Positions 354 to 34,632 of a DNA stretch of 64,000 nucleotides are shown piece after piece. The position numbers and the translations under genes are program-made. The notes under the pieces were generated by a model. That model was given only the letters and a program-made list of their open reading frames with translations. It made no database searches and was not told the origin of the DNA. The stretch is from a virus (taxonomy: Duplodnaviria; Heunggongvirae; Uroviricota; Caudoviricetes): positions 5,256-69,255 of IMG/VR virus record IMGVR_UViG_3300047444_000753. One strand, 5' to 3'. Each line of letters starts with the position of its first letter. Position 1 is the first letter of the stretch.

Positions 354-2479
354 CCGAAGAGTCGTATATCGACCTCAATTCAAAGCTGAACCTTTGGACA
401 GACGACCACAAGATTGACTTCGAGGCGGACAAGGAAGCTGCTCGGCAGTACCACCTGCAGGAAGTCAACCGCAAATTCATGTACCACCCCTCCCTTGAGG
501 AAAAGCTGGACTACCTGTTTGTCAACGGGTACTACGACAAGAGCGTCTGGGACAAGTACGACGACGCGGAGATCAAGGATCTCTACAAGTACGCCTACGG
601 ATTCAAGCACCGCTTCACGTCGTTCCTTGGTGCCATGAAGTTCTACACGGCCTATGCCATGAAGTCCTTCGACGGCGAGACATGGATGGAGCGCTTCGAG
701 GACCGCGTTGTGGCTGTGGCTCTGGAGCTTGCCAATGGCAATTCGGAAGAGGCACGCCGGATCATCGAGGAGATCATCACCGGACGCCTGCAGCCCGCCA
801 CGCCGACCTTTGCCAACTGCGGTAAGATGCAGCGCGGCGAGCGTGTCTCCTGCTTCCTGATCGACATTCAGGACTCAATGAACTCCATCGGGCGTGCCGT
901 GAACACCGGCCTGCAGCTGTCCAAGCGTGGCGGCGGTGTCGGATTCAACATCTCCAACCTGCGTGAATTCGGTGCCCCGATCAAGCAGCTGGAGAACATG
1001 GCATCCGGTGTTCTGCCGGTCTGCAAGCTCTTCGATGACGCCTTCTCCTACGCCAACCAGCTGGGCTCCCGTCAGGGTGCCTGTGCCGTCTACATCTCCG
1101 CCCACCACCCGGACGTGTTCCGCGTGCTGGATGCGAAGAAGGAGAACGCTGATGAGAAGTCGCGCCTCAAGACGCTGTCAATCGGTCTAGTCCTCACGGA
1201 CAAGCTCTACGAGCTGGCCAAGAATGACGAGGTGCTCTACCAGTTTTCCCCGTACGACGTGGAGCGCTTCTACGGCGTACCGTTCTCCAAGGTGGACATC
1301 ACCGCCGAGTACGACAACATGGTTGACAACGCGGCCATCCGGAAGTACAAGCACAAGGACTACCCCAAGGCCCGTGACCTGTTCCAGCTGATCGCGGAGA
1401 TCCAGTTCGAGTCCGGCTACCCGTACATCCTCAACATTGACACTGTCAACCGCGCAAATCCTATTGCGGGTACGATTGATATGTCCAACCTCTGCTCCGA
1501 GATTGTACAGGTCTCCACCCCCTCCGTGCTGCGTGATGACCTCTCCTACGAGGAAGAGGGCCGGGACATTTCCTGCAACCTTGCTTCCATGAACGTCAAG
1601 TACGCCATGGATGGCGGCAACCTCGCCCAGACGGTCGAGACGGCTGTGCGCCTGCTGACCGAGGTCTCCGACATCACGTCGATCGATTCGGTTCCGTCTG
1701 TGCGCAATGGTAACGACAAATCGCACTCCATCGGACTGGGCCAGTTCGGCCTTCACCAATTTTTTATCACCGAAGGCATGCAGTATGGTGATGAGGACTC
1801 GCTTGACTTCACCAACATCTACTTCATGACTGTGGCTTTCCATGCCCTACGGGCATCATGCAAGTTGGCAGCGGAACGTGGGAAGCGTTTCTACGAATTC
1901 GAGAAATCAAAGTACGCGGATCCAGCCTACTTGACGGAGAAGTACTCCGATCCGTCCATGGTGGTGCCCAATGACAACACTGTGGCAATTTTCGAGAAAT
2001 ACGGCATTTGGATTCCGAACGAAGACAGCTGGGCTAACCTTGCAGAAGAAATTGCTGAGCACGGCCTCTATAACGCTTATCTCATGGCAGTGCCCCCGAC
2101 CGGATCCATCTCCTACGTCAACGGCGGGACGGCGTCCATCCACCCGTCTGTGGCCGCTGTGGAGATCCGCAAGGAGGGCAAGATCGGACGCGTGGCCTAC
2201 GCTACTCCGGGACTGACCAATGAGAACTACGCGGACTTCAAGGACGCCTACGATCTTGGCTGGCGTGCCGTTATCGACGTATATGCTGCTGCGCAGCCGC
2301 ACGTGGATCAGGCCATGTCGCTGACCCTGTTCTATACGAACCAAGACAGTACAAGGACCTTGAATCAGGCATACATTTACGCGTGGCGAAAAGGAATCAA
2401 GTCTCTTTACTACGCAAGGGTACGTAGTGACGCTCTTGAGGGTGCTGACGAATCCCAATGTGTCTCATGTACATTGTAG
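338..2479 (+). CDS. nrdE: Ribonucleotide reductase class Ib alpha subunit
   Basis: 713 aa with conserved NrdE blocks ([37 protein letters not shown]). Confidence 0.95.
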
Positions 2480-3221
2480 TGTTTTGGTAATCTACGGTTT
2501 ACGACTTTCAACCTGCTCTGAGTATAGGTATGTGGGGCTTACCACAAAAACTGCTCAGAGCAGGTTGAAAGGGCATATAAAGAGAACGAATAACCCTAAC
2601 CAGAAAAACTATCCTGTCAATGATTGGATAGCCAAGCATGGTAGCGATATGATAGTGGTTGATGTCCTGCAAGAGCTTATTGACCAGCCTTACGATGAAC
2701 TACTGCTAGCTGAAATTTATTGGATCAGTAAATTGCGTTTGGAAGGTAACCATCTTTTAAACATTGCCGAAGGCGGCAAAAGTTCTAAAGGCCACAAGTG
2801 GACTGAAGAGCGAAGAAAGATAGTGTCCGAGCGGATGAGGGGGAATACCTATGCAAAAGGTTGGCCCCAGCCGCGAGGCCCCAAGCACTCTGAATGGCAG
2901 AAGCGTAAGTGGTCTGAAGAACGTTCCGGAAGTATTACCGGTGAGCTAAACCCTAATTTTGGTAAATTCGGAGAGGATCACCCGGCATATGGACGAACTT
3001 TTTCTGAAGAGGCTCTAAAGAAAATTTCGGATGCAAAGAAGGGATCGAAAAATCCTAACTACGGCAAAGAAATGACGCAGGCGGAAAAAGATCTACGTTC
3101 TGCAGCACTTAAGGGCGTCCCTCAACCGAAGAATGCCTCCAATGCACATAAGAGACATCACACTAATAAAGGGGTTTCCAAGCCGGAAACCTGTAGGTAC
3201 TGTAAGGAAGAAAACGACTAA
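2427..3221 (+). CDS. GIY-YIG homing endonuclease with NUMOD3-like repeats (free-standing HEG)
   Basis: VIYGL...RYVGLT...R..GH motif, then repeated NPNYGK/NPNFGK/GNTYAKG modules. AT-rich (about 42% GC) compared with its neighbours. True start is probably TTG 2484; the annotated 5' end overlaps the nrdE stop. Confidence 0.8.
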   Translation: MTLLRVLTNPNVSHVHCSVLVIYGLRLSTCSEYRYVGLTTKTAQSRLKGHIKRTNNPNQKNYPVNDWIAKHGSDMIVVDVLQELIDQPYDELLLAEIYWISKLRLEGNHLLNIAEGGKSSKGHKWTEERRKIVSERMRGNTYAKGWPQPRGPKHSEWQKRKWSEERSGSITGELNPNFGKFGEDHPAYGRTFSEEALKKISDAKKGSKNPNYGKEMTQAEKDLRSAALKGVPQPKNASNAHKRHHTNKGVSKPETCRYCKEEND

Positions 3222-4165
3222 TGGTCAAAGCGATCAACTGGAATAACGTTCCAGATTTTGAGAAAAGTATCTGGAATAAGCTCACTGAGAACTTCTGGCT
3301 GCCAGAGAAGGTACCGCTATCCAACGACCTCCAGTCGTGGGGCAAGATGACGGACCACGAGAAGGAGACCACCATCAAGGTCTTCGCCGGTCTGACGTTC
3401 CTTGACACCATCCAAGGTACTACTGGGGCCGTCTCCCTGATGAAGGACGCCGGTAACCCCTTCGAAGAGGCCATTTACGCCAACATGTGCTTCATGGAGG
3501 TAGTGCACGCCAAATCCTACTCCTCCATCTTCTCCACGCTCTGCTCCACCAAAGAAATCGATGAGGTTTTCCGCTGGACCGAGGAAAATGACCAGCTGCA
3601 GTTCAAGGCCAACACGGTGCTTGAATACTACGAGGGCACTGACCCGATGAAGAAGAAGATCGCCTCCACCATGCTGGAAGGCTTCCTCTTCTACTCCGGC
3701 TTCTACCTTCCGCTGTACTGGTCTTCACGCCAGAAGCTGACCAACACCGCCGACCTGATCCGGCTCATCCTGCGCGACGAGGGGGTCCACTCCTACATGA
3801 TCGGCCAGTGGTTCCAGCGGGACCTCGCCATGTACCCGGCAGAGGTTCAGGCTGAATACAAGCAGTTCGCCTACGACCTACTCTTCGACCTCTACGAGAA
3901 CGAAGTTGAGTATACACAGGACCTCTACGACGGACTGGGCCTCACCGAGGACGTCAAGATGTTCCTGCGCTACAACGCCAACAAGTCCCTGATGAACCTC
4001 GGCTTCGATCCGCTGTTCCCCAAGGACCAGACCAACGTCAGCCCCGCCATCCTGTCGGCACTCTCCACCAACTCCGGAGAGAACCACGACTTCTTCTCGG
4101 GATCGGGATCCAGCTATGTCATCGGCAAGGTCGAGGAGAGCACGGACGAAGACTGGGATTTCTGA
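3221..4165 (+). CDS. nrdF: Ribonucleotide reductase class Ib beta subunit
   Basis: 314 aa di-iron R2 fold motifs (FWLPEKV, EVVHAKSYS, RDEGVH). Confidence 0.95.
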   Translation: MVKAINWNNVPDFEKSIWNKLTENFWLPEKVPLSNDLQSWGKMTDHEKETTIKVFAGLTFLDTIQGTTGAVSLMKDAGNPFEEAIYANMCFMEVVHAKSYSSIFSTLCSTKEIDEVFRWTEENDQLQFKANTVLEYYEGTDPMKKKIASTMLEGFLFYSGFYLPLYWSSRQKLTNTADLIRLILRDEGVHSYMIGQWFQRDLAMYPAEVQAEYKQFAYDLLFDLYENEVEYTQDLYDGLGLTEDVKMFLRYNANKSLMNLGFDPLFPKDQTNVSPAILSALSTNSGENHDFFSGSGSSYVIGKVEESTDEDWDF

Positions 4166-5884: not shown

Positions 5885-5956
5885 GCTCCCGTCTATGTTG
5901 GTTTGGATCTCGGACTTTCAATCCGGGCTACGCCGGTTCAATTCCGGTCGGGAGTA
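5885..5956 (+). tRNA. tRNA-Glu (TTC)
   Basis: Anticodon stem TCGGA/TCCGG with loop CTTTCAA, T-loop TTCAATT, acceptor GCTCCCG/CGGGAGT. Confidence 0.75.
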
Positions 5957-5957
5957 C

Positions 5958-6827: not shown

Positions 6828-6830
6828 CGC

Positions 6831-6858
6831 TTGACACAGGTCTAATCTGTGGTATAGT
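6831..6858 (+). promoter_or_regulatory. sigma70-like promoter TTGACA-16-TATAGT inside the tRNA array
   Basis: Consensus -35 and near-consensus -10, immediately upstream of tRNA-Leu(GAG). Confidence 0.6.
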
Positions 6859-6869
6859 AGAGTAACTAT

Positions 6870-6954
6870 GTCAGTGTGGCGGAATGGTAGACGCGCTAGC
6901 TTGAGGTGCTAGTGGGCTGAAATGCTCGTGTGGGTTCGACTCCCATCATTGATA
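6870..6954 (+). tRNA. tRNA-Leu (GAG), type II
   Basis: Anticodon stem CTAGC/GCTAG with loop TTGAGGT, long variable arm, T-arm GTGGG/TTCGACT/CCCAT. Confidence 0.8.
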
Positions 6955-7435: not shown

Positions 7436-7879
7436 GTGAATACAGAATTCAATGACGCCATCTTCGATTACGAAGAACAGTCGTACACCATCAAAAATAA
7501 GTTCGAGTCCGGCACCACGGTCGAAATGGAATTTTGGCTGACGGAGACCAACAGACTCGACCCCACCCTGTACGTTGAAGTCGGACTGAGGTCCTACACC
7601 AAGAGACGGCAGCAGGATCGCCCCGACTTTGAGTTCTCTGTAACAGGCAAGGATGGCCTACGTCCTGCAATCTGGGCGACCAATCTCCTACTCAAGTTCC
7701 CTGAGTTCGTCCTCCGCGACTGGGATTTCCGGGACAAAGATCGAGTGGTCTACACCGTTTACTGGTCTGAATCTCGCCGCAGGAGCGTCTACCACAAATG
7801 GCTGTCTAGGCACGGCTTCTACTTCGATCAGGTGCTCGGTACCAAATGCCTGACAAAGGTATTTCCACGGGTCAAATAG
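7436..7879 (+). CDS. hypothetical protein (147 aa)
   Basis: GTG start 2 nt after tRNA-Arg. Coding-like composition. Confidence 0.6.
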   Translation: MNTEFNDAIFDYEEQSYTIKNKFESGTTVEMEFWLTETNRLDPTLYVEVGLRSYTKRRQQDRPDFEFSVTGKDGLRPAIWATNLLLKFPEFVLRDWDFRDKDRVVYTVYWSESRRRSVYHKWLSRHGFYFDQVLGTKCLTKVFPRVK

Positions 7880-7922
7880 TCGGTAGTGTATACTGAAAGT
7901 ACACTTACTATGAAGGAGCCTC

Positions 7923-8183
7923 ATGATGTCACTCTGGGCAATGGTACAAGGAGACCCAGTCTTCATGCGGCGCGTCAACGGATGGCTCGCCATCTTCTGG
8001 CTGGCCATGATTCCCGTCAGCATCGTCACCGGCTGGGTCAGCTCGGTCGAGTACGTCTCCGCACTCTCCATCTGGGCTCTGGTCTCTGGTCACTGGTCCG
8101 CTTGGCAGGCTGCTCGCGTCGAAGTCCGTCAGGAAGAGATCGAGAAGCAGCGTCAGGACGAATTGGACACCACAAACAACTAG
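7923..8183 (+). CDS. small membrane protein (2 predicted TM helices)
   Basis: AAGGAG RBS, then an ATG-ATG start. Hydrophobic segments WLAIFWLAMIPVSIV and ALSIWALVSG. Confidence 0.7.
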   Translation: MMSLWAMVQGDPVFMRRVNGWLAIFWLAMIPVSIVTGWVSSVEYVSALSIWALVSGHWSAWQAARVEVRQEEIEKQRQDELDTTNN

Positions 8184-8361
8184 CTGTATACTTTTACACA
8201 TGCGAATCTACAAAATGTGTGGCAGCGGTATCCGCAACGGATACCTTGAGTACGGCATCTACAAGGGCGGCACGATCCGCTGGAACATCGGCATCGGGGC
8301 TCGCCCGACGATGTCAAAGGGTGTCAAAGCCCTCGGCCCCTTCTGGTGGTCCAAGCGGTAC

Positions 8362-8390
8362 TAGACATCACTGAAAAATAGTGGTACAAT
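8362..8390 (+). promoter_or_regulatory. promoter TAGACA-17-TACAAT (with TGG extension) upstream of tRNA-Lys(CTT)
   Basis: -35-like hexamer, 17-nt spacer, extended -10 GGTACAAT. Confidence 0.45.
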
Positions 8391-8434
8391 TACTTTAGAC
8401 ACTTAGCCCCTCTGGCAACAAGGGCTAGGTTTTC

Positions 8435-8762: not shown

Positions 8763-9497
8763 ATGACCAAGCTCAACCAGATCATCGCCATTGAAGGCGG
8801 ACTCAAGAACACTTCCAAGCGCGATATCACCGACGCTTACCACAAGATCCAGCGCACCACGAGCCTCAACGGCATCTCCCGTACCTACAAGCCCAAGGAC
8901 GAAGAGGGCGACCAGCTCCCGTCCGAAAGCACCCTCGTGCAGACCCGTGTTGAGGACGTACTCACCGAGGTCTCCGACTCCCTGACCCGACTCTTCGATG
9001 TCACCCTGACCAAGGAGACCGCCAACGGCTCGGCCAAGGCCGATGTCGTCGTGGACGGCAAGGTCATCGTCAAGGACGCCCCGGTCACCTACCTGCTCTT
9101 CCTTGAGAAGCAGCTCGTTGATCTGAAGACCTTCGTCGCGGCCCTCCCGACGCTGGATCCGGCAGAAGTCTGGAACCAGAACACTGCAACCGGCGACTGG
9201 GCCACCGAGGTCACTCAGACGGTGAAGACCAAGAAGATCCCGAAGAACTGGGAGAAGTCTCCGGCAACGGACAAGCACCCGGCACAGGTCGAGATCTTCC
9301 ACGAAGACGTCATCGTCGGCACGTGGAGCACCACCAAGTTCTCCGGTGCCCTGCCCCGTGAGCGCCGCAATGCGCTCCTGACCCGCGTCGATGACCTGCT
9401 GACCGCAGTCAAGTTTGCCCGCGAGGATGCAAACTCCACCACGGTCACCGATGTCGCGACCGGCAAGAAAGTTTTCGACTTCCTGTTTTCAGCGTAG
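8763..9497 (+). CDS. hypothetical protein (244 aa)
   Basis: AAGGAA RBS. No recognisable motifs. Confidence 0.7.
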   Translation: MTKLNQIIAIEGGLKNTSKRDITDAYHKIQRTTSLNGISRTYKPKDEEGDQLPSESTLVQTRVEDVLTEVSDSLTRLFDVTLTKETANGSAKADVVVDGKVIVKDAPVTYLLFLEKQLVDLKTFVAALPTLDPAEVWNQNTATGDWATEVTQTVKTKKIPKNWEKSPATDKHPAQVEIFHEDVIVGTWSTTKFSGALPRERRNALLTRVDDLLTAVKFAREDANSTTVTDVATGKKVFDFLFSA

Positions 9498-9575
9498 TCG
9501 AACAAGAATCCCCGTTGAGCGCGGGGTAGGTGCCATGCGGCACCCAAACTGAAACTGACGATTCAGATTCAAAAT

Positions 9576-9650
9576 AGCTCTCAGTGGTGGTTCGAGTCCA
9601 CCCCCTCCGACCAATCAACGGAGGGTAGCCCAAATGGTAGAGGCAGGCTC
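9576..9650 (+). other. permuted tRNA-like element: 3' half (T-arm + acceptor 3' strand + encoded ACCA), then a 5-nt linker, then 5' half (acceptor 5' strand + D-arm)
   Basis: GGTGG/TTCGAGT/CCACC + CCCTCCG + A + CCA at 9581–9611, then ATCAA, then CGGAGGG-TA-GCCC...GGGC at 9617–9645. The two acceptor strands pair 7 of 7 but in inverted gene order. Confidence 0.35.
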
Positions 9651-9729
9651 TTAGATTCAGATTATCGCTCTAGATTCAGAAGCTTCACGCTAGACTGATC
9701 GACCGTATACACGCCTTAGCTTTGAAATA

Positions 9730-9810
9730 AGGGTTCGATTCCCTTCCCGGCCTCTGTGTCCTAGACACTGTTTCACCCAAATGGCCGGGTGGCATAATGG
9801 TAATGCGCAA
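9730..9810 (+). other. second permuted tRNA-like element (T-arm + 3' acceptor upstream of the cognate 5' acceptor + D-arm)
   Basis: AAGGG/TTCGATT/CCCTT + CCCGGCC at 9730–9753. About 30 nt later comes GGCCGGG-TG-GCAT/AATGGTA/ATGC at 9784–9807. The acceptor strands pair 7 of 7. Confidence 0.3.
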
Positions 9811-9922
9811 ACTTCTTAAATTGATGTGTATACTTAAATGTGCAGTAGACTAGCATAATGTGGCTATAAACACTCAATCGAAGAGCGGCGGGAGCCGGAT
9901 ATGCTCCCGTCGCTCGCCACAT

Positions 9923-9994
9923 ATCCCTGTAGCTCAGTGGTAGAGCATCGGCATGACTCGCCGTGCGTCGGAGGTTCGAATCCTCTCGGGGATA
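9923..9994 (+). tRNA. tRNA-Val (GAC) (atypical position 37)
   Basis: D-arm GCTC/GAGC, anticodon stem TCGGC/GCCGT with loop ATGACTC, T-arm GGAGG/TTCGAAT/CCTCT, acceptor ATCCCTG/CGGGGAT. Confidence 0.55.
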
Positions 9995-10022
9995 CACAGA
10001 GACAGTTACTACGAAGGACGCT

Positions 10023-10475
10023 ATGTCGGATTACTCAGACTCTATCGCAATTATGTTCCCGGCGAATTACCCGGACGATAGGGCCGATCCGCACTGCACC
10101 CTGATCTGGCTGGGAGAAACTACCAGCTTCATGTTCTCCAAGGAGGACGTGCTGGCCGTTCTGAAGGCCGATGACTACACCCCGAACGACGAATACACCC
10201 CTCTCCCGCCCAAGATCTTCGGCAAGGATGACGAGCGCGTGGTCGTTCTCCCGCTCGATGATGCGGACGGCTCCCTGCAGGCCCTGCGTGACAAGCTAGA
10301 GAAGGCTCTGGGAGCCCTCGGGATCCAGTCCCCGTCCGAATACACCACCTATGTCCCACACGTGACCACAGAGGACTACGTCCCCGGCGTCACCAAGATG
10401 GCCAACTACCCGGTGCCGGACAAGATCAAGCTGGGCGCTGCCGAGCTCTGGTGGGGCGACGAGCGAGTCTCATAA
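10023..10475 (+). CDS. 2H phosphoesterase superfamily protein (LigT / 2'-5' RNA ligase-like or Acb1-like cyclic-nucleotide phosphodiesterase)
   Basis: 150 aa with the two H-x-T/S-x motifs of the 2H fold (HCTLIW and HVTT). GAAGGA RBS. Sits directly after a tRNA. Confidence 0.65.
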   Translation: MSDYSDSIAIMFPANYPDDRADPHCTLIWLGETTSFMFSKEDVLAVLKADDYTPNDEYTPLPPKIFGKDDERVVVLPLDDADGSLQALRDKLEKALGALGIQSPSEYTTYVPHVTTEDYVPGVTKMANYPVPDKIKLGAAELWWGDERVS

Positions 10476-23732: not shown

Positions 23733-23803
23733 GGCGGTTGGGATGGATGGAAAGTCGCTCCCCTGCAAAGGGATAGATGCCGGTTCGATTCCGGCAATCG
23801 CCT
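23733..23803 (+). tRNA. tRNA-Cys (GCA)
   Basis: Acceptor GGCGGTT/AATCGCC, anticodon loop CTGCAAA, T-arm GCCGG/TTCGATT/CCGGC. Confidence 0.7.
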
Positions 23804-23870
23804 CCAAGTAGTTTACTTCTGTGTGTTTTTATGCTAATCTTGACGTAACGATTCGAAGAAAGGATGACAA

Positions 23871-33348: not shown

Positions 33349-34632
33349 GTGAACAATATGCCAGCAATCATGGTTCTTGATACGAGTGTACTTCTAGCCG
33401 CAGGGAAGAAGGCCTTGTACTCATTTGAACAAAATGATCTGGTCATTCCTTACACCGTGCTGAAAGAGCTTGAGTCCAAGAAATCCGATCCGGAACTGGG
33501 CCGCATGGCGCGTTCGGTAATCAAGGAGCTCGACAACCTCAACGAGACGGGCGACATCAAGACCGGCGTCAGCCTTGGAGAAGATTTCGGTAGCATTCGG
33601 GTCGAGGTCAATCATGTCGGAGATGTCCCGGAGATCCTTCAGCCGTATCCTTCAAACGATACCAAGATCATCACGGTTGCCGCCTACCTGACCGGACAGG
33701 CCGATCAAGAAGTCTTCCTCGTTTCCAAGGACATCGCGCTCCGCATCGTCGCCTCTACGGTGGACGTCAAGACCCGGGACTTCACCCCGAACTTCGACGG
33801 CAACTTCATTGACAAGGTGGAGTCCTTCGACGTTCCGGTCGAGGCCATCGATGAGATCCACGAAGAGGGCGACGTCAAGCTGACGCTAAAGGTGCCCATG
33901 AACGCTGGTGTCATCCTGCGCTCCGAGATCAACCCCAAGCACTCGGCCCTCGCCATCGCCAAGGGGGATTACTCCTTCAAGATCATCGATGACCAGAAGG
34001 TCAAGGGCCTTGAATCGCACAGCGCCGAACAGGCCATCGCGATCGAGTACCTGATGGATCCGAAGATCAAGATCGTCTCCCTCGGTGGCCGTGCCGGTAC
34101 AGGTAAGACCACACTGGCGCTGGCCGCTGGCATCGAGCAGCTGAACGACTACAAGAAGATCACGGTGTTCCGCTCCATGCACGCTGTCGGCGGCGAGGAG
34201 CTTGGCTTCCTCCCGGGCACCGAGCAGGAGAAGATGGATCCTTGGACACAGGCGATCTACGACTCCCTCGAATCCTTCATGGACAAGAGCCAGATCAACG
34301 CTCTCAAGATGAAGGGCCAGATCGAAGTCCTGCCGCTGACCCACATCCGTGGCCGTACGCTCCACAACCGCTTCGTGATCGTGGATGAGGCGCAGAACCT
34401 CCACAAGGATGTCCTGATGACCGCTCTGTCCCGTCTGGGTCAGAAGTCCAAGGCCGTCCTGAGCTGGGACGCCGCACAGCGTGACAACATGTACGTTGGC
34501 CGCTTCGATGGGGTCTATGAGGTCGCCAGCCGACTTCTCGGGGAAAAGCTCTTCGGCCACGTATCGCTGCAGCGCTCCGAGCGTTCGGACGTTGCGGACC
34601 TTGTGACCCGGAAGCTGGACGATCTCAACTAG
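33349..34632 (+). CDS. PhoH-like ATPase with N-terminal PIN domain (YlaK-like)
   Basis: PIN-like IMVLDTSVLL, then Walker A GGRAGTGKTTLA. Confidence 0.85.
   Translation: MNNMPAIMVLDTSVLLAAGKKALYSFEQNDLVIPYTVLKELESKKSDPELGRMARSVIKELDNLNETGDIKTGVSLGEDFGSIRVEVNHVGDVPEILQPYPSNDTKIITVAAYLTGQADQEVFLVSKDIALRIVASTVDVKTRDFTPNFDGNFIDKVESFDVPVEAIDEIHEEGDVKLTLKVPMNAGVILRSEINPKHSALAIAKGDYSFKIIDDQKVKGLESHSAEQAIAIEYLMDPKIKIVSLGGRAGTGKTTLALAAGIEQLNDYKKITVFRSMHAVGGEELGFLPGTEQEKMDPWTQAIYDSLESFMDKSQINALKMKGQIEVLPLTHIRGRTLHNRFVIVDEAQNLHKDVLMTALSRLGQKSKAVLSWDAAQRDNMYVGRFDGVYEVASRLLGEKLFGHVSLQRSERSDVADLVTRKLDDLN

What the first reader, a model, noticed from the sequence alone, without database searches (positions are those of the whole stretch)
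9540..9922. Two consecutive circularly permuted tRNA-like elements (3' half with encoded CCA placed upstream of its cognate 5' half), plus local direct repeats
First element: a complete T-arm and 3' acceptor strand with an encoded ACCA (GGTGG-TTCGAGT-CCACC-CCCTCCG-A-CCA, 9581–9611) is followed after 5 nt by the perfectly complementary 5' acceptor strand and a D-arm (CGGAGGG-TA-GCCC...GGGC, 9617–9645). Second element: the same inverted order recurs (T-arm + CCCGGCC at 9730–9753, then GGCCGGG + D-arm at 9784–9807). No other tRNA in the window encodes CCA. The arrangement resembles the gene order of permuted tRNAs and two-piece tmRNAs, where the 3' part precedes the 5' part and maturation goes through a circular or trans-assembled intermediate. 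It could also be the footprint of repeated endonuclease-driven recombination among tRNA genes. Nearby direct repeats (GATTCAGATT...GCTCT at about 9562 and 9649; CTTAAAT...GTG at 9818 and 9833) fit the recombination explanation. Either way it is an unusual, previously unannotated structure.
Basis: partly seen in the sequence, partly recalled or inferred. Interest (0 to 1): 0.8.

Follow-up and report, generated by a model that had tools for sequence, protein, structure and literature searches.

The report
Tandem tRNA-mimic RNA beside DUF7873
The two "back-to-front tRNAs" are real: they are the two tRNA-shaped domains of a roughly 425-base noncoding RNA, related to bacterial Y RNAs (YrlA), that sits next to a protein of unknown function (DUF7873) in most of the roughly 160 phage and bacterial loci examined and is unannotated in every record examined.

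Summary
At 9586-9644 and 9729-9806 a T-arm and 3' acceptor strand come before the perfectly complementary 5' acceptor strand and a D-arm. Element 1 encodes A-CCA.

These are not permuted tRNA genes, a two-piece tmRNA or recombination debris. They are two closed-acceptor tRNA-like domains (TLDs) of one conserved structured RNA (about 9498-9922) directly downstream of a DUF7873 gene (8763-9497).

The same gene-RNA pair occurs in about 60 of 84 viral loci and 77 of 80 bacterial loci. Hosts include Streptomyces, Nocardia, Armatimonadota and Acidobacteria, and it is seen or hinted at in Klebsiella, Rhizobium and cyanobacterial phages.

Covariation is strong: 95-98% of cells paired against 66-68% in shuffles, and 45 of 47 pairs show double changes.

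The architecture matches YrlA Y RNAs, but Ro60 is absent from the window and from the closest phage genomes. It adjoins DUF7873 in only 3 loci.

New features:
- tandem TLDs;
- hexamer-periodic flanks;
- a conserved GGAUA-loop terminal hairpin;
- NCCA encoded in 44% of phage TLDs;
- a TLD1 D-arm otherwise found only in short tRNA-Leu, together with A73.

The D-arm and A73 suggest that RNase P opens TLD1 and that it may then accept leucine. The function is untested.

The parts
8763..9497 (+). DUF7873 protein gene (244 aa), the conserved neighbour of the RNA
   Evidence: Pfam PF25283, E=1.2e-104. 7015 homologues. AF2 model pLDDT 82 with no informative fold match.
9510..9526 (+). Hairpin H0, CCCCG-UUGAGCG-CGGGG, just after the stop codon
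   Evidence: The stem covaries between homologues (CCCUG/CAGGG, CUACG/CGUAG, CCGGU/GCCGG) and the loop always ends in GAGCG.
9529..9544 (+). Hairpin H1, GGUGCC-AUGC-GGCACC
   Evidence: A hairpin with a different sequence occupies this position in homologues, e.g. GCGC-GAGUA-GCGC and GCGC-GAGGA-GCGC.
9546..9575 (+). 5' flank of TLD1: tandem hexamers (AAACUG AAACUG ACGAUUC AGAUUC ...)
   Evidence: Across 118 unique family members, identity is 0.495 at lag 6 and 0.505 at lag 12, against 0.25 +/- 0.009 in shuffles.
9576..9585 (+). 5' strand of the anticodon-stem analogue (AGCU, pairs with GGCU 9646-9649) plus variable region CUCAGU (U48 = 9585)
   Evidence: In homologues the pairing is replaced by ACCGU/ACGGU and CGCGGU/ACCGCG. 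AGU before the T stem is invariant.
9586..9602 (+). TLD1 T-arm
   Evidence: Covarying 5-bp stem with a UUCGAGU loop.
9603..9625 (+). TLD1 acceptor hairpin: CCCUCCG, A73, CCA, spacer AUCAA, CGGAGGG. The predicted RNase P site is 5' of C9619.
   Evidence: All 7 pairs show double compensatory changes. 31 distinct acceptor strands occur among 39 unique phage copies, and NCCA is present in 44% of them.
9626..9645 (+). U8 A9 plus the TLD1 D-arm (GCCC-AAAUGGUAGA-GGC) and A26. This is a tRNA-Leu-type D-arm.
   Evidence: Nearly invariant in the family. The motif occurs in 111 of 111 cases, and 4 of 4 in an unbiased set, only in short tRNA-Leu.
9646..9687 (+). 3' flank of TLD1: GGCU, then UUAGAUUCAGAUUAUCGCUCUAGAUUCAGAAGC (conserved motif, hexamer periodic)
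   Evidence: Conserved block ...UCAGAUUAUCGCUCYAGAYU.... Lag-6 identity is 0.378 against 0.252. In most homologues the MFE fold pairs it with the 5' hexamers as a long interrupted helix.
9689..9712 (+). 5' strands of the outer helix (GCUAGACUG 9689-9697) and of helix Pc (GUAUACAC 9705-9712), separated by the conserved loop AUCGACC
   Evidence: RNAalifold and pair counts on an unbiased MAFFT alignment: outer helix 6/6 and Pc 9/9 pairs with double changes. MFE of the window, z = -3.7.
9720..9728 (+). TLD2 anticodon-stem analogue 5' strand (CUUUG, pairs with CAAAC 9808-9812) plus variable region AAAU
   Evidence: Read from the sequence. Racecar has CAUUG/CAAUA, with an A-U to U-A switch.
9729..9745 (+). 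TLD2 T-arm
   Evidence: 100% paired, with 4 of 5 pairs showing double changes.
9746..9789 (+). TLD2 acceptor hairpin: CCCGGCC, U73, a 30-nt loop with inner hairpin GUGUC/GACAC (9756-9768), GGCCGGG
   Evidence: 7 of 7 pairs covary and 100% are paired. The inner hairpin covaries with Racecar (GAGUC/GACUC).
9790..9812 (+). U8 G9, TLD2 D-arm (GCAU-AAUGGUA-AUGC), G26, CAAAC
   Evidence: D stem: 4 of 4 pairs with double changes.
9826..9854 (+). 3' strands: Pc (GUGUAUAC 9826-9833), conserved CUUAAAUGUG (9833-9842), outer helix CAGU-AGA-CUAGC (9843-9854)
   Evidence: UUAAA is invariant in 25 diverse sequences. The Ro60-linked YrlA of phage Bxz1 carries the same CUUAAACGCC motif after its D-arm.
9858..9922 (+). 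3' domain: closing helix AUGUGGC (9858-9864) x GCCACAU (9916-9922) around a 13-bp hairpin (9883-9915) with loop CGGAUAU
   Evidence: Inverted repeat, 92% complementary. 47 distinct stems of at least 8 bp (12-13 bp in most) carry the conserved loop YGG(A/C)(U/C)AY. The closing helix covaries (GAUGGAAAC/GUUUCCAU in L006).
9923..9995 (+). tRNA-Val(gac), an ordinary tRNA that abuts the 3' end of the RNA
   Evidence: ARAGORN and Rfam, 55.8 bits.
10023..10475 (+). 2H-phosphoesterase / LigT-like ORF. This is RNA-end-healing context and is not shown to be part of the system.
   Evidence: Weak Pfam 2_5_RNA_ligase2 hit, E=5e-5, below the cutoff. Gene call in L012. Conserved only in the closest relatives.

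Best explanation
Window 9498-9922 encodes one structured noncoding RNA of about 425 nt on the + strand. It probably reads on from the DUF7873 gene.

Anatomy, 5' to 3':
- two small 5' hairpins;
- a first tRNA-like domain (TLD1) closed by flanks made of hexamer repeats;
- a second tRNA-like domain (TLD2) on top of two covarying helices separated by conserved internal loops;
- a 3' hairpin with a conserved GGAUA-type loop.

Each TLD has a T-arm, a 7-bp acceptor stem closed by a loop, and a D-arm. This is the YrlA (bacterial Y RNA) way of mimicking a tRNA. The elbow formed by the D and T loops is presented while the place of the anticodon arm is taken by a protein-binding stem.

Shown here: the anatomy, its conservation with covariation, and the tight genetic linkage to DUF7873.

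Inferred: the RNA and DUF7873 form an RNP that belongs to the Ro60/Y-RNA sphere of RNA surveillance and repair. RNase P cuts 5' of C9619, and trimming of the 5-nt trailer exposes the encoded CCA. TLD1 then becomes a two-piece, tRNA-Leu-like acceptor end. In a phage tRNA island the module most likely recruits or distracts tRNA-binding enzymes.
For: 1. Structure. For TLD1, 98.3% of cells are paired against 68% in shuffles and about 45% with slid partners. 15 of 16 pairs show double changes, and the covariation score is 0.715 against 0.166 (0 of 500 shuffles). For the TLD2 module, on a MAFFT alignment not fitted to any model, 95.1% are paired against 65.6% and about 43%, with 30 of 31 pairs showing double changes.

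2. Linkage.
- A covariance model of element 1 hits full length (45-135 bits) just after the DUF7873 stop in about 60 of 84 viral sources.
- It hits in 60 of 80 bacterial loci (59 at 97-124 bits, plus L171), and 17 more bacterial loci carry a short variant.
- In the window it hits nowhere else.
- No other protein neighbour is conserved.
- Klebsiella, Rhizobium, cyanobacterial and Vibrio phages carrying DUF7873 have a 350-700 nt unannotated gap downstream of the gene. TLDs are detected there significantly in the Klebsiella and cyanobacterial phages, weakly in Rhizobium (E about 0.01) and not significantly in Vibrio (E about 0.08).

3. YrlA likeness.
- YrlA is the best Rfam match to both modules: 22.1 bits in the window, and 25.1 and 19.9 bits in Streptomyces.
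- The order of stems and loops is the same.
- The UUAAAC motif is shared with the Ro60-linked YrlA of Bxz1, which itself scores only 32.5 bits.
- In 3 viral loci a TROVE/Ro60 gene lies directly upstream of DUF7873, and in one of them a YrlA-like TLD lies between the two genes.

4. Processing. The acceptor stem is 7 bp. NCCA follows it in 44% of unique phage TLD1 and TLD2 copies, against 1.6% by chance. M. smegmatis YrlA gives an in vivo precedent.

5. Strand. G-U pairs and the canonical UUCGA T-loops fit only the + strand.
Against: - There are no expression, processing or binding data.
- Both Rfam YrlA scores are far below the gathering score of 69.
- The Ro60-contact motif GNCGAAN0-1G is absent from the window copy. 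Some bacterial TLD2 stems carry GCCGAA.
- Pairing of the hexamer flanks (P1) is predicted by MFE in most homologues but is not supported column by column. In the window the fold of this part is not better than shuffles (z = -1.1).
- TLD1 is replaced by a plain hairpin in about 17 Streptomyces loci, so it is dispensable there.
- A few DUF7873 genes (Herpetosiphon) have no RNA within 6 kb.
- The DUF7873 fold gives no hint of RNA binding.
Confidence: 0.8

Rival explanations
1. It is an ordinary Ro60-dependent Y RNA pair (YrlA/YrlB). The RNA tethers a phage or host Ro60/Rsr ring to an exoribonuclease, and DUF7873 is a bystander or accessory.
For: The architecture is the same, and YrlA is the best Rfam match. 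Tandem Y RNAs made from one precursor are known in M. smegmatis. TROVE genes sit directly upstream of DUF7873 in L046, L090 and L093. Some bacterial TLD2 stems carry GCCGAA and UGUCGGCG.
Against: There is no TROVE ORF in the 64-kb window. tblastn with Bxz1 Ro60 finds 357 phage records, but none from Arthrobacter, Klebsiella, Serratia, Rhizobium, Pseudanabaena or Ralstonia phages, all of which carry DUF7873. Only 3 of about 160 DUF7873 loci have Ro60 nearby. The window copy lacks the GNCGAA motif.
Confidence: 0.2
2. TLD1 is a leucine-accepting, anticodon-less tRNA-like domain. After RNase P cleavage and CCA exposure, LeuRS charges it, and the RNP delivers or sequesters Leu. This would parallel the way tmRNA uses the anticodon-independent Ala identity.
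For: The TLD1 D-arm motif is found only in tRNA-Leu: 111 of 111 cases, and 4 of 40 Leu against 0 of 260 other tRNAs in an unbiased set. The discriminator is A73 in 74% of phage copies and 92% of bacterial copies. A14, A15, G18, G19 and U48 are invariant. [quoted passage not shown] CCA is encoded in 44% of phage copies.
Against: The likeness to tRNA-Leu may only record ancestry. 26% of phage TLD1 copies lack A73. Bacterial copies rarely encode CCA and have long closing loops. TLD1 is lost in some Streptomyces. Nothing is known about actinobacterial LeuRS rules. No biochemical data exist.
Confidence: 0.2
3. The RNA is a cis-acting 3' UTR device for the DUF7873 mRNA. tRNA-like domains direct RNase P cleavage to define or stabilise the mRNA 3' end, as mascRNA does for MALAT1, and the RNA has no trans function.
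For: The RNA starts at the stop codon, and no promoter or terminator is predicted in between. The orientation is almost always the same and the position downstream.
Against: Some 400 nt of covarying structure beyond the first cleavage site would be unnecessary. The RNA lies upstream of the gene in L094, 330-900 nt away in L133 and L171, and is duplicated in L171.
Confidence: 0.1
4. These are circularly permuted tRNA genes that mature through a circular or trans-joined intermediate into normal tRNAs.
For: The order 3' half then 5' half, and the perfect acceptor complementarity.
Against: No anticodon stem-loop can be rebuilt, because the outer ends form long conserved helices and repeats. ARAGORN makes no call. 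Bacteria and phages lack the splicing endonuclease pathway (established knowledge).
Confidence: 0.02
5. It is a two-piece (permuted) tmRNA, or degenerate debris left by recombination among tRNA genes.
For: A permuted acceptor end with CCA, local direct repeats, and a location inside a tRNA island. Tandem identical tRNAs do give the same look, and this is a plausible remote origin of the TLDs.
Against: ARAGORN calls no tmRNA and reports no tag peptide. No Rfam tmRNA family matches at E<=10. Pair 3:70 is G-C. Debris would not keep 95-98% pairing through dozens of compensatory changes across phyla.
Confidence: 0.01

Closest known systems
YrlA, the tRNA-like bacterial Y RNA (Rfam RF02553; Chen et al. 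2014, PMC4201824; crystal structure preprint 10.1101/312249)
   Same: The order is T-arm, closed acceptor stem, D-arm, with the anticodon arm replaced by a stem with internal loops. tRNA tertiary nucleotides are present. It also occurs in phages and often has a second Y RNA in tandem. The M. smegmatis member has a 7-bp acceptor stem, is cut by RNase P and receives CCA.
   Different: The conserved neighbour is DUF7873, not Ro60. Scores are far below the family threshold. Both modules are full TLDs. TLD1 has tRNA-Leu-type features and hexamer-repeat flanks. There is a conserved GGAUA-loop 3' hairpin. NCCA is often genome-encoded. The whole RNA is about 425 nt against about 115 nt.
Ro60-linked YrlA/YrlB of cluster C mycobacteriophages (Bxz1 gp220 locus)
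   Same: An actinophage with a large tRNA set. A TLD is followed by the same UUAAACGCC motif, and a second stem-loop RNA follows.
   Different: It lies upstream of a TROVE protein. It has a single TLD, no DUF7873 and no hexamer flanks. My element-1 model scores it at only 13 bits.
Two-piece (permuted) tmRNA of alpha-proteobacteria, cyanobacteria and others
   Same: The 3' acceptor piece with encoded CCA comes before the 5' piece. The acceptor end is opened by RNase P. The aminoacylation identity does not depend on the anticodon (Ala there, possibly Leu here).
   Different: No tag reading frame, no pseudoknots, no G3:U70, a true D-arm is present, and ARAGORN and Rfam do not detect it.
Permuted tRNA genes of Cyanidioschyzon merolae and Thermofilum (from my own knowledge)
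   Same: The 3' half is encoded ahead of the 5' half.
   Different: Those rebuild a complete tRNA through a BHB-dependent circular intermediate. Here there is no anticodon loop, and the termini are conserved helices.
Large ornate phage-associated RNAs next to tRNAs (GOLLD, ROOL) and MALAT1 mascRNA-type RNase P processing signals (from my own knowledge)
   Same: A large conserved structured RNA of unknown function inside a phage tRNA region. A tRNA-like element that can direct RNase P.
   Different: No Rfam match to GOLLD or ROOL. Here a specific protein gene is always adjacent.

Membership tests
YrlA / bacterial Y RNA | tRNA-like module in the order T-arm, closed acceptor stem-loop, D-arm, with D/T tertiary nucleotides | tested here: met
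   Both elements have this order. The helices covary. U8, A14, G18G19 and the UUCGA T-loop are present.
YrlA / bacterial Y RNA | Reaches the Rfam RF02553 gathering score (69 bits) | tested here: not met
   22.1 bits in the window, and 25.1 and 19.9 bits in Streptomyces. The test is weak, because the Ro60-linked YrlA of Bxz1 also fails at 32.5 bits.
YrlA / bacterial Y RNA | Encoded next to a Ro60/Rsr (TROVE) gene | tested here: not met
   No TROVE ORF in the window. None in Arthrobacter phages. Only L046, L090 and L093 among about 160 loci have one.
YrlA / bacterial Y RNA | 5' motif GNCGAAN0-1G (presumed Ro60 contact) | tested here: inconclusive
   The window has GACGAUUC and CUGAUCGA, which do not match. 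Streptomyces and Nocardia TLD2 stems have GCCGAAUC, and other loci have GCCGGAUC.
YrlA / bacterial Y RNA | Binds Ro60 and tethers an effector | not testable with these tools
   Needs immunoprecipitation.
tmRNA (two-piece) | Detected by ARAGORN or the Rfam tmRNA models; has a tag reading frame | tested here: not met
   No call and no tag peptide. No tmRNA family match at E<=10.
tmRNA (two-piece) | G3:U70 alanine identity pair | tested here: not met
   TLD1 has C1-G72, G2-C71 and G3-C70. TLD2 pair 3:70 is C-G.
Permuted tRNA gene | The outer ends join to restore a 5-bp anticodon stem and a 7-nt loop | tested here: not met
   The outer ends continue into covarying helices and conserved repeats.
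tRNA-Leu-like acceptor (bacterial LeuRS identity set) | A73; A14, the A15:U48 Levitt pair, G18G19, the Leu-type D-loop; intact D/T core; 7-bp acceptor stem | tested here: met
   All are present in the window copy. A73 is found in 74% of phage and 92% of bacterial copies. The D-arm motif is exclusive to tRNA-Leu. The rules are taken from PMC9976931.
tRNA-Leu-like acceptor (bacterial LeuRS identity set) | Free CCA end and actual leucylation | not testable with these tools
   CCA is encoded, but cleavage and charging need biochemistry.
DUF7873 (Pfam PF25283) | Full-length match above the curated cutoff | tested here: met
   349.8 bits against a cutoff of 27; residues 1-242 match positions 1-242 of 244.

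The most novel reading that the evidence does not exclude
DUF7873 and this double-TLD RNA form a widespread ribonucleoprotein of phages and bacteria that has not been recognised before. RNase P opens both acceptor loops, so the mature RNA is held together as two or three base-paired pieces with tRNA-like CCA ends. TLD1, which carries the anticodon-independent tRNA-Leu identity set, is leucylated. That would make it a second natural aminoacylated tRNA-like domain embedded in a larger RNA, after tmRNA. It would be used for a non-decoding purpose, such as a decoy or antidote against tRNA-targeting defence nucleases, or a donor for aminoacyl transfer.
Probability: 0.2. Interest if true: 0.9.

Novelty: new variant of a known kind. 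Interest (0 to 1): 0.72.

Why it matters
Y RNAs and their tRNA-like YrlA branch are known only as partners of Ro60, and what the tRNA-like domain is for remains an open question.

Here the same kind of RNA, enlarged to two tRNA-like domains, is genetically tied to a different, uncharacterised protein. That protein family has about 7000 homologues and is about 60% identical between phages and distant bacterial phyla.

This has four consequences:
1. It gives DUF7873 a first functional context.
2. It defines a roughly 400-nt structured RNA class that is missing from Rfam and from phage annotations. SEA-PHAGES genomes show an empty gap or small spurious ORFs at this position.
3. It offers a sharply testable idea: RNase P cleavage, CCA exposure and leucylation of an anticodon-less domain.
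4. It may explain why large phages place such modules in their tRNA islands next to RNA-repair enzymes.

Tried and rejected
- ARAGORN and Rfam at gathering thresholds found nothing at the locus.
- tmRNA and permuted-tRNA readings were rejected (see the rival explanations).
- Neighbourhood analysis of 80 bacterial loci found no conserved partner gene. An ABC-F ATPase next to DUF7873 in Actinomadura is lineage-specific.
- Column-wise covariation for the hexamer-flank helix P1 failed. The repeats allow register shifts, so P1 remains only an MFE prediction.
- The sigma-70 promoter and terminator scan was uninformative.
- The reverse test asked whether the RNA motif predicts DUF7873, using the D-arm pattern. 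It was swamped by genuine short tRNA-Leu genes. This was useful for a different reason, because it revealed the tRNA-Leu signature. Only 3 true TLD hits were found, and all had DUF7873 within 275 nt.
- Literature searches for DUF7873, YrlA in phages, and tRNA-like ncRNAs in actinobacteria or jumbo phages found no description of this module.
- I did not settle whether individual Gordonia, Rhodococcus or Vibrio phages carry both Ro60 and DUF7873.
Full report
**1. What is in the sequence**

The window is a tRNA-rich stretch of a large actinophage. It carries 28 tRNAs and is syntenic with the 194-kb Arthrobacter phages Racecar, Mimi and Talia1610 at about 69% nucleotide identity.

Between the stop codon of ORF 8763-9497 and tRNA-Val (9923-9995) lie 425 nt with no credible ORF.

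- Element 1: T-arm 9586-9602, CCCTCCG 9603-9609, A 9610, CCA 9611-9613, ATCAA, CGGAGGG 9619-9625, TA, D-arm 9628-9644.
- Element 2: T-arm 9729-9745, CCCGGCC 9746-9752, a 30-nt loop, GGCCGGG 9783-9789, TG, D-arm 9792-9806.

The coordinates in the finding are 1-5 nt off. The repeats it mentions exist. One statement is wrong: tRNA-Cys at 23733-23806 also encodes CCA. ARAGORN reports no tRNA and no tmRNA here, and Rfam at curated thresholds reports only the 28 tRNAs.

**2. First lead**

A permissive Rfam scan of 9400-10000 gave, besides tRNA-Val, one match of note. It was YrlA (Y RNA-like, RF02553) over 9555-9674, at 22.1 bits and E=0.034, well under the gathering score of 69.

YrlA RNAs are the bacterial and phage Y RNAs found next to Ro60/Rsr. 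Their central domain mimics a tRNA in exactly this order: T-arm, an acceptor stem closed by a loop, then a D-arm. Their authors describe them as resembling circularly permuted tRNAs (PMC4201824; 10.1101/312249).

In Mycobacterium smegmatis the YrlA acceptor stem has 7 bp. It is cut by RNase P in vitro and in vivo, and the 5' piece acquires CCA. A second Y RNA (YrlB) comes from the same precursor.

**3. The neighbour is not Ro60**

The upstream ORF is a full-length DUF7873 protein (PF25283, E=1e-104). None of the large ORFs of the window has a TROVE domain, and tblastn with the Ro60-like protein of phage Bxz1 finds nothing in the window.

DUF7873 is a big family with 7015 homologues. It occurs in bacteria such as Streptomyces, Actinomadura, Nocardia, Micromonospora, Herpetosiphon, Armatimonas, Blastocatellia and Ktedonobacterales at about 60% identity. 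It also occurs in cultured phages of Arthrobacter, Gordonia, Rhodococcus, Klebsiella/Serratia, Vibrio, Rhizobium, Ralstonia and cyanobacteria, where it is always annotated as hypothetical.

**4. The RNA travels with DUF7873**

In Racecar the homologous 410-nt gap is unannotated and contains both elements with compensatory changes. The first acceptor stem is CCCCGGC/GCCGGGG instead of CCCTCCG/CGGAGGG. The second T stem is GCGGG/CCCGC instead of AAGGG/CCCTT.

I fetched about 80 viral and 80 bacterial DUF7873 loci. A covariance model of element 1 gave these results.

- Viral loci: full-length hits (45-135 bits) directly after the gene in about 60 of 84 sources. The second domain showed up about 150 nt further on as a partial hit. 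Nothing else in the 64-kb window matched.
- Bacterial loci: 60 of 80 hit full length (59 at 97-124 bits, plus L171). In 17 more the first tRNA-like domain is replaced by a plain hairpin while the flanks and the second domain remain.

Among bacterial loci from different phyla no other gene is conserved next to DUF7873.

More distant phages with DUF7873 also have an unannotated 350-700 nt gap after the gene.

- A Klebsiella jumbo phage has two detectable tRNA-like domains there, the first again with ACCA.
- A Pseudanabaena phage has one clear domain and one marginal one.
- A Rhizobium phage gives only a weak hit (E about 0.01).
- A Vibrio phage gives none that is significant (E about 0.08).

There are exceptions. 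The RNA lies upstream of the gene in L094, 0.3-0.9 kb away in L133 and L171, and is not found near the Herpetosiphon genes.

**5. Structure and selection**

On the model-derived alignment of 93 distinct sequences, 98.3% of cells in the T, acceptor and D helices are standard pairs. The figures are 68% after shuffling and about 45% with partners slid by 1-3 columns. 15 of 16 pairs show changes on both sides.

For the second module I used a plain MAFFT alignment of 25 diverse sequences. RNAalifold recovered an outer 6-bp helix, a 9-bp helix, and the T, acceptor and D helices. 95.1% of cells were paired against 65.6% and about 43%, 30 of 31 pairs showed double changes, and the covariation score was 0.855 against 0.265.

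Other conserved features:
- The internal loops between the helices are nearly invariant. They read AUCGACC on the 5' side and CUUAAACGUG on the 3' side.
- The 3' end is a long hairpin, 12-13 bp in most loci, whose stem varies freely (47 distinct versions). Its loop is conserved as YGG(A/C)(U/C)AY, which is CGGAUAU in the window.
- The two small hairpins after the stop codon are also conserved in position, and their stems covary.

G-U pairs and the T-loops fix the strand as +. The window's second half folds into exactly this structure on its own (z = -3.7).

**6. The direct repeats**

The flanks of the first domain are built of tandem hexamers, roughly N-A-R-R-Y-U. Over 118 unique sequences the 5' flank is 49.5% self-identical at lag 6 and 50.5% at lag 12. 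Shuffles give 25 +/- 0.9%. The 3' flank gives 37.8% at lag 6.

In most homologues the minimum-energy fold pairs the two flanks into a long helix interrupted every few base pairs. I could not confirm this by covariation, because the repeats allow register shifts. In the window this part does not fold better than shuffles.

The repeats are therefore a conserved feature and not recombination scars. A periodic binding platform for an oligomeric protein is possible but untested.

**7. The acceptor ends**

In 100 loci with two recognisable domains the acceptor stems are 7 bp and almost always perfectly paired. There are 31 different strands among 39 unique phage copies of domain 1.

| Feature | Domain 1 | Domain 2 |
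|---|---|---|
| Base after the stem | A in 74% of phage and 92% of bacterial copies | U or G |
| NCCA after the stem, unique phage copies | 44% | 44% |
| NCCA after the stem, bacterial copies | 10% | 6% |

Chance expectation for NCCA is 1.6%. In this window 27 of 28 true tRNA genes do not encode CCA. This points to selection for a tRNA-like 3' end once the loop is opened, as shown experimentally for M. smegmatis YrlA. That step is inferred, not shown.

**8. A tRNA-Leu signature**

The D-arm of domain 1 is U-R-GCCCAA-N(1-4)-GG-N-AGAGGC, a 3-bp stem with a 13-22 mismatch and loop AA(N)UGGUAGA.

I scanned the viral collection with this motif. It returned mostly genuine tRNA genes. ARAGORN types all 111 unique tRNAs carrying the motif as tRNA-Leu, all of a short 73-79 nt kind. 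In loci that were not chosen by the pattern, the motif occurs in 4 of 40 tRNA-Leu and in 0 of 260 other tRNAs.

According to the identity review PMC9976931, E. coli LeuRS depends on A73, the A15:U48 pair, G18G19, A20a and the D/T tertiary core. [quoted passage not shown]

Domain 1 has every one of these features. It is therefore a tRNA-Leu mimic. Whether this reflects ancestry only, or real leucylation, is open.

Tandem identical tRNA genes produce the same 'permuted' look (L220). This is a plausible remote origin of the domains.

**9. Relation to Ro60 systems**

tblastn with Bxz1 Ro60 finds 357 phage records: Mycobacterium 212, Streptomyces 117, Gordonia 11, Microbacterium 10, and a few others. 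None comes from Arthrobacter, Klebsiella, Serratia, Rhizobium, Pseudanabaena or Ralstonia phages. The closest complete relatives of this window therefore lack Ro60.

The Bxz1 YrlA upstream of Ro60 scores only 32.5 bits with the Rfam model, and it shares the UUAAACGCC motif after its D-arm with our second module. The failed Rfam threshold is therefore weak evidence against kinship.

In three viral loci (L046, L090, L093) a TROVE/vWA gene lies directly upstream of DUF7873. L046 has a PNKP-phosphatase gene in between. L090 has a YrlA-like domain with encoded ACCA in between.

DUF7873 thus belongs to the functional neighbourhood of Y RNAs and RNA repair, but in most genomes it stands alone with the RNA.

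In the window, the next genes after tRNA-Val are a weak 2H-phosphoesterase-like ORF and a staphylococcal-nuclease-like ORF.

**10. Verdict**

The feature is a conserved noncoding RNA of about 425 nt with two YrlA-type tRNA-like domains, genetically coupled to DUF7873. It is a new variant of the Y-RNA/tRNA-mimic theme. It is absent from Rfam at threshold, from phage annotations and from the literature I could search.

The mechanism beyond the anatomy is inference and needs the experiments listed. This covers the RNP with DUF7873, opening by RNase P, the CCA end and possible leucylation.

Noticed in passing
window 23733-23806: tRNA-Cys(gca) encodes its 3' U-CCA, unlike the other 27 tRNA genes of the window.
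   Followed up: yes
window 4415-24452: The 28 tRNAs cover 19 amino acids, and tRNA-Tyr is missing. Racecar has tRNA-Tyr(gta) between Arg(tct) and Lys(ctt). In the window that interval (7436-8434) instead holds ORF 7886-8374, which has no family match.
   Followed up: no
window 2427-3221: A GIY-YIG/NUMOD3 homing-endonuclease-like ORF sits between the large (338-2479) and small (3221-4165) ribonucleotide reductase subunit genes.
   Followed up: no
window 5885-5957: tRNA-Glu(ttc) scores only 31.3 bits with the Rfam tRNA model, against a gathering score of 29. It is an atypical or degenerate tRNA.
   Followed up: no
L185, L186, L189, L190, L192, L202, L220, L236; also L026 3735-3810 and L046 3831-4073: Many phages encode short (73-79 nt) tRNA-Leu genes without the long variable arm that bacterial tRNA-Leu normally has. 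They share a characteristic D-arm, GCCCAA..GG.AGAGGC.
   Followed up: partly
L121, L134, L141, L144 (Streptomyces), about 6830-6920: In about 17 Streptomyces loci the first tRNA-like domain is replaced by a simple hairpin, while the hexamer flanks, the second domain and the 3' hairpin are kept.
   Followed up: partly
L171 6173-6321 and 6741-6886; L094 2129-2269: A Ktedonobacterales genome has two copies of element 1 about 0.9-1.5 kb downstream of DUF7873. In viral locus L094 the element lies upstream of the gene.
   Followed up: no
L183 3480-3556 (Mycobacterium phage Bxz1): The Ro60-linked YrlA of Bxz1 scores 32.5 bits, far below the Rfam gathering score of 69. The curated YrlA model therefore misses actinophage members. 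A second stem with GCCGAAGG follows at about 3612-3695.
   Followed up: partly
L046 140-2288; L090 481-1848; L093 454-1755: Viral contigs carry a TROVE/vWA (Ro60-like) gene directly upstream of DUF7873. In L046 a PNKP-phosphatase-domain gene lies between the two.
   Followed up: partly
L189 4531-4882: A viral contig fetched by the D-arm pattern carries a standard one-piece tmRNA (tag ANDNALVPMQMAA) inside its tRNA island.
   Followed up: no
window 33349-34632: A PIN-PhoH fusion protein (PIN_4 plus PhoH), a predicted RNA-targeting ATPase/nuclease, is encoded 24 kb downstream.
   Followed up: no
L177 4729-5197 (Gordonia phage Ziko genes 125, 126); L176 5003-5131 (GodonK gene 151): Small 'hypothetical protein' ORFs annotated in cultured phages overlap the conserved RNA region and are probably spurious calls.
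   Followed up: no
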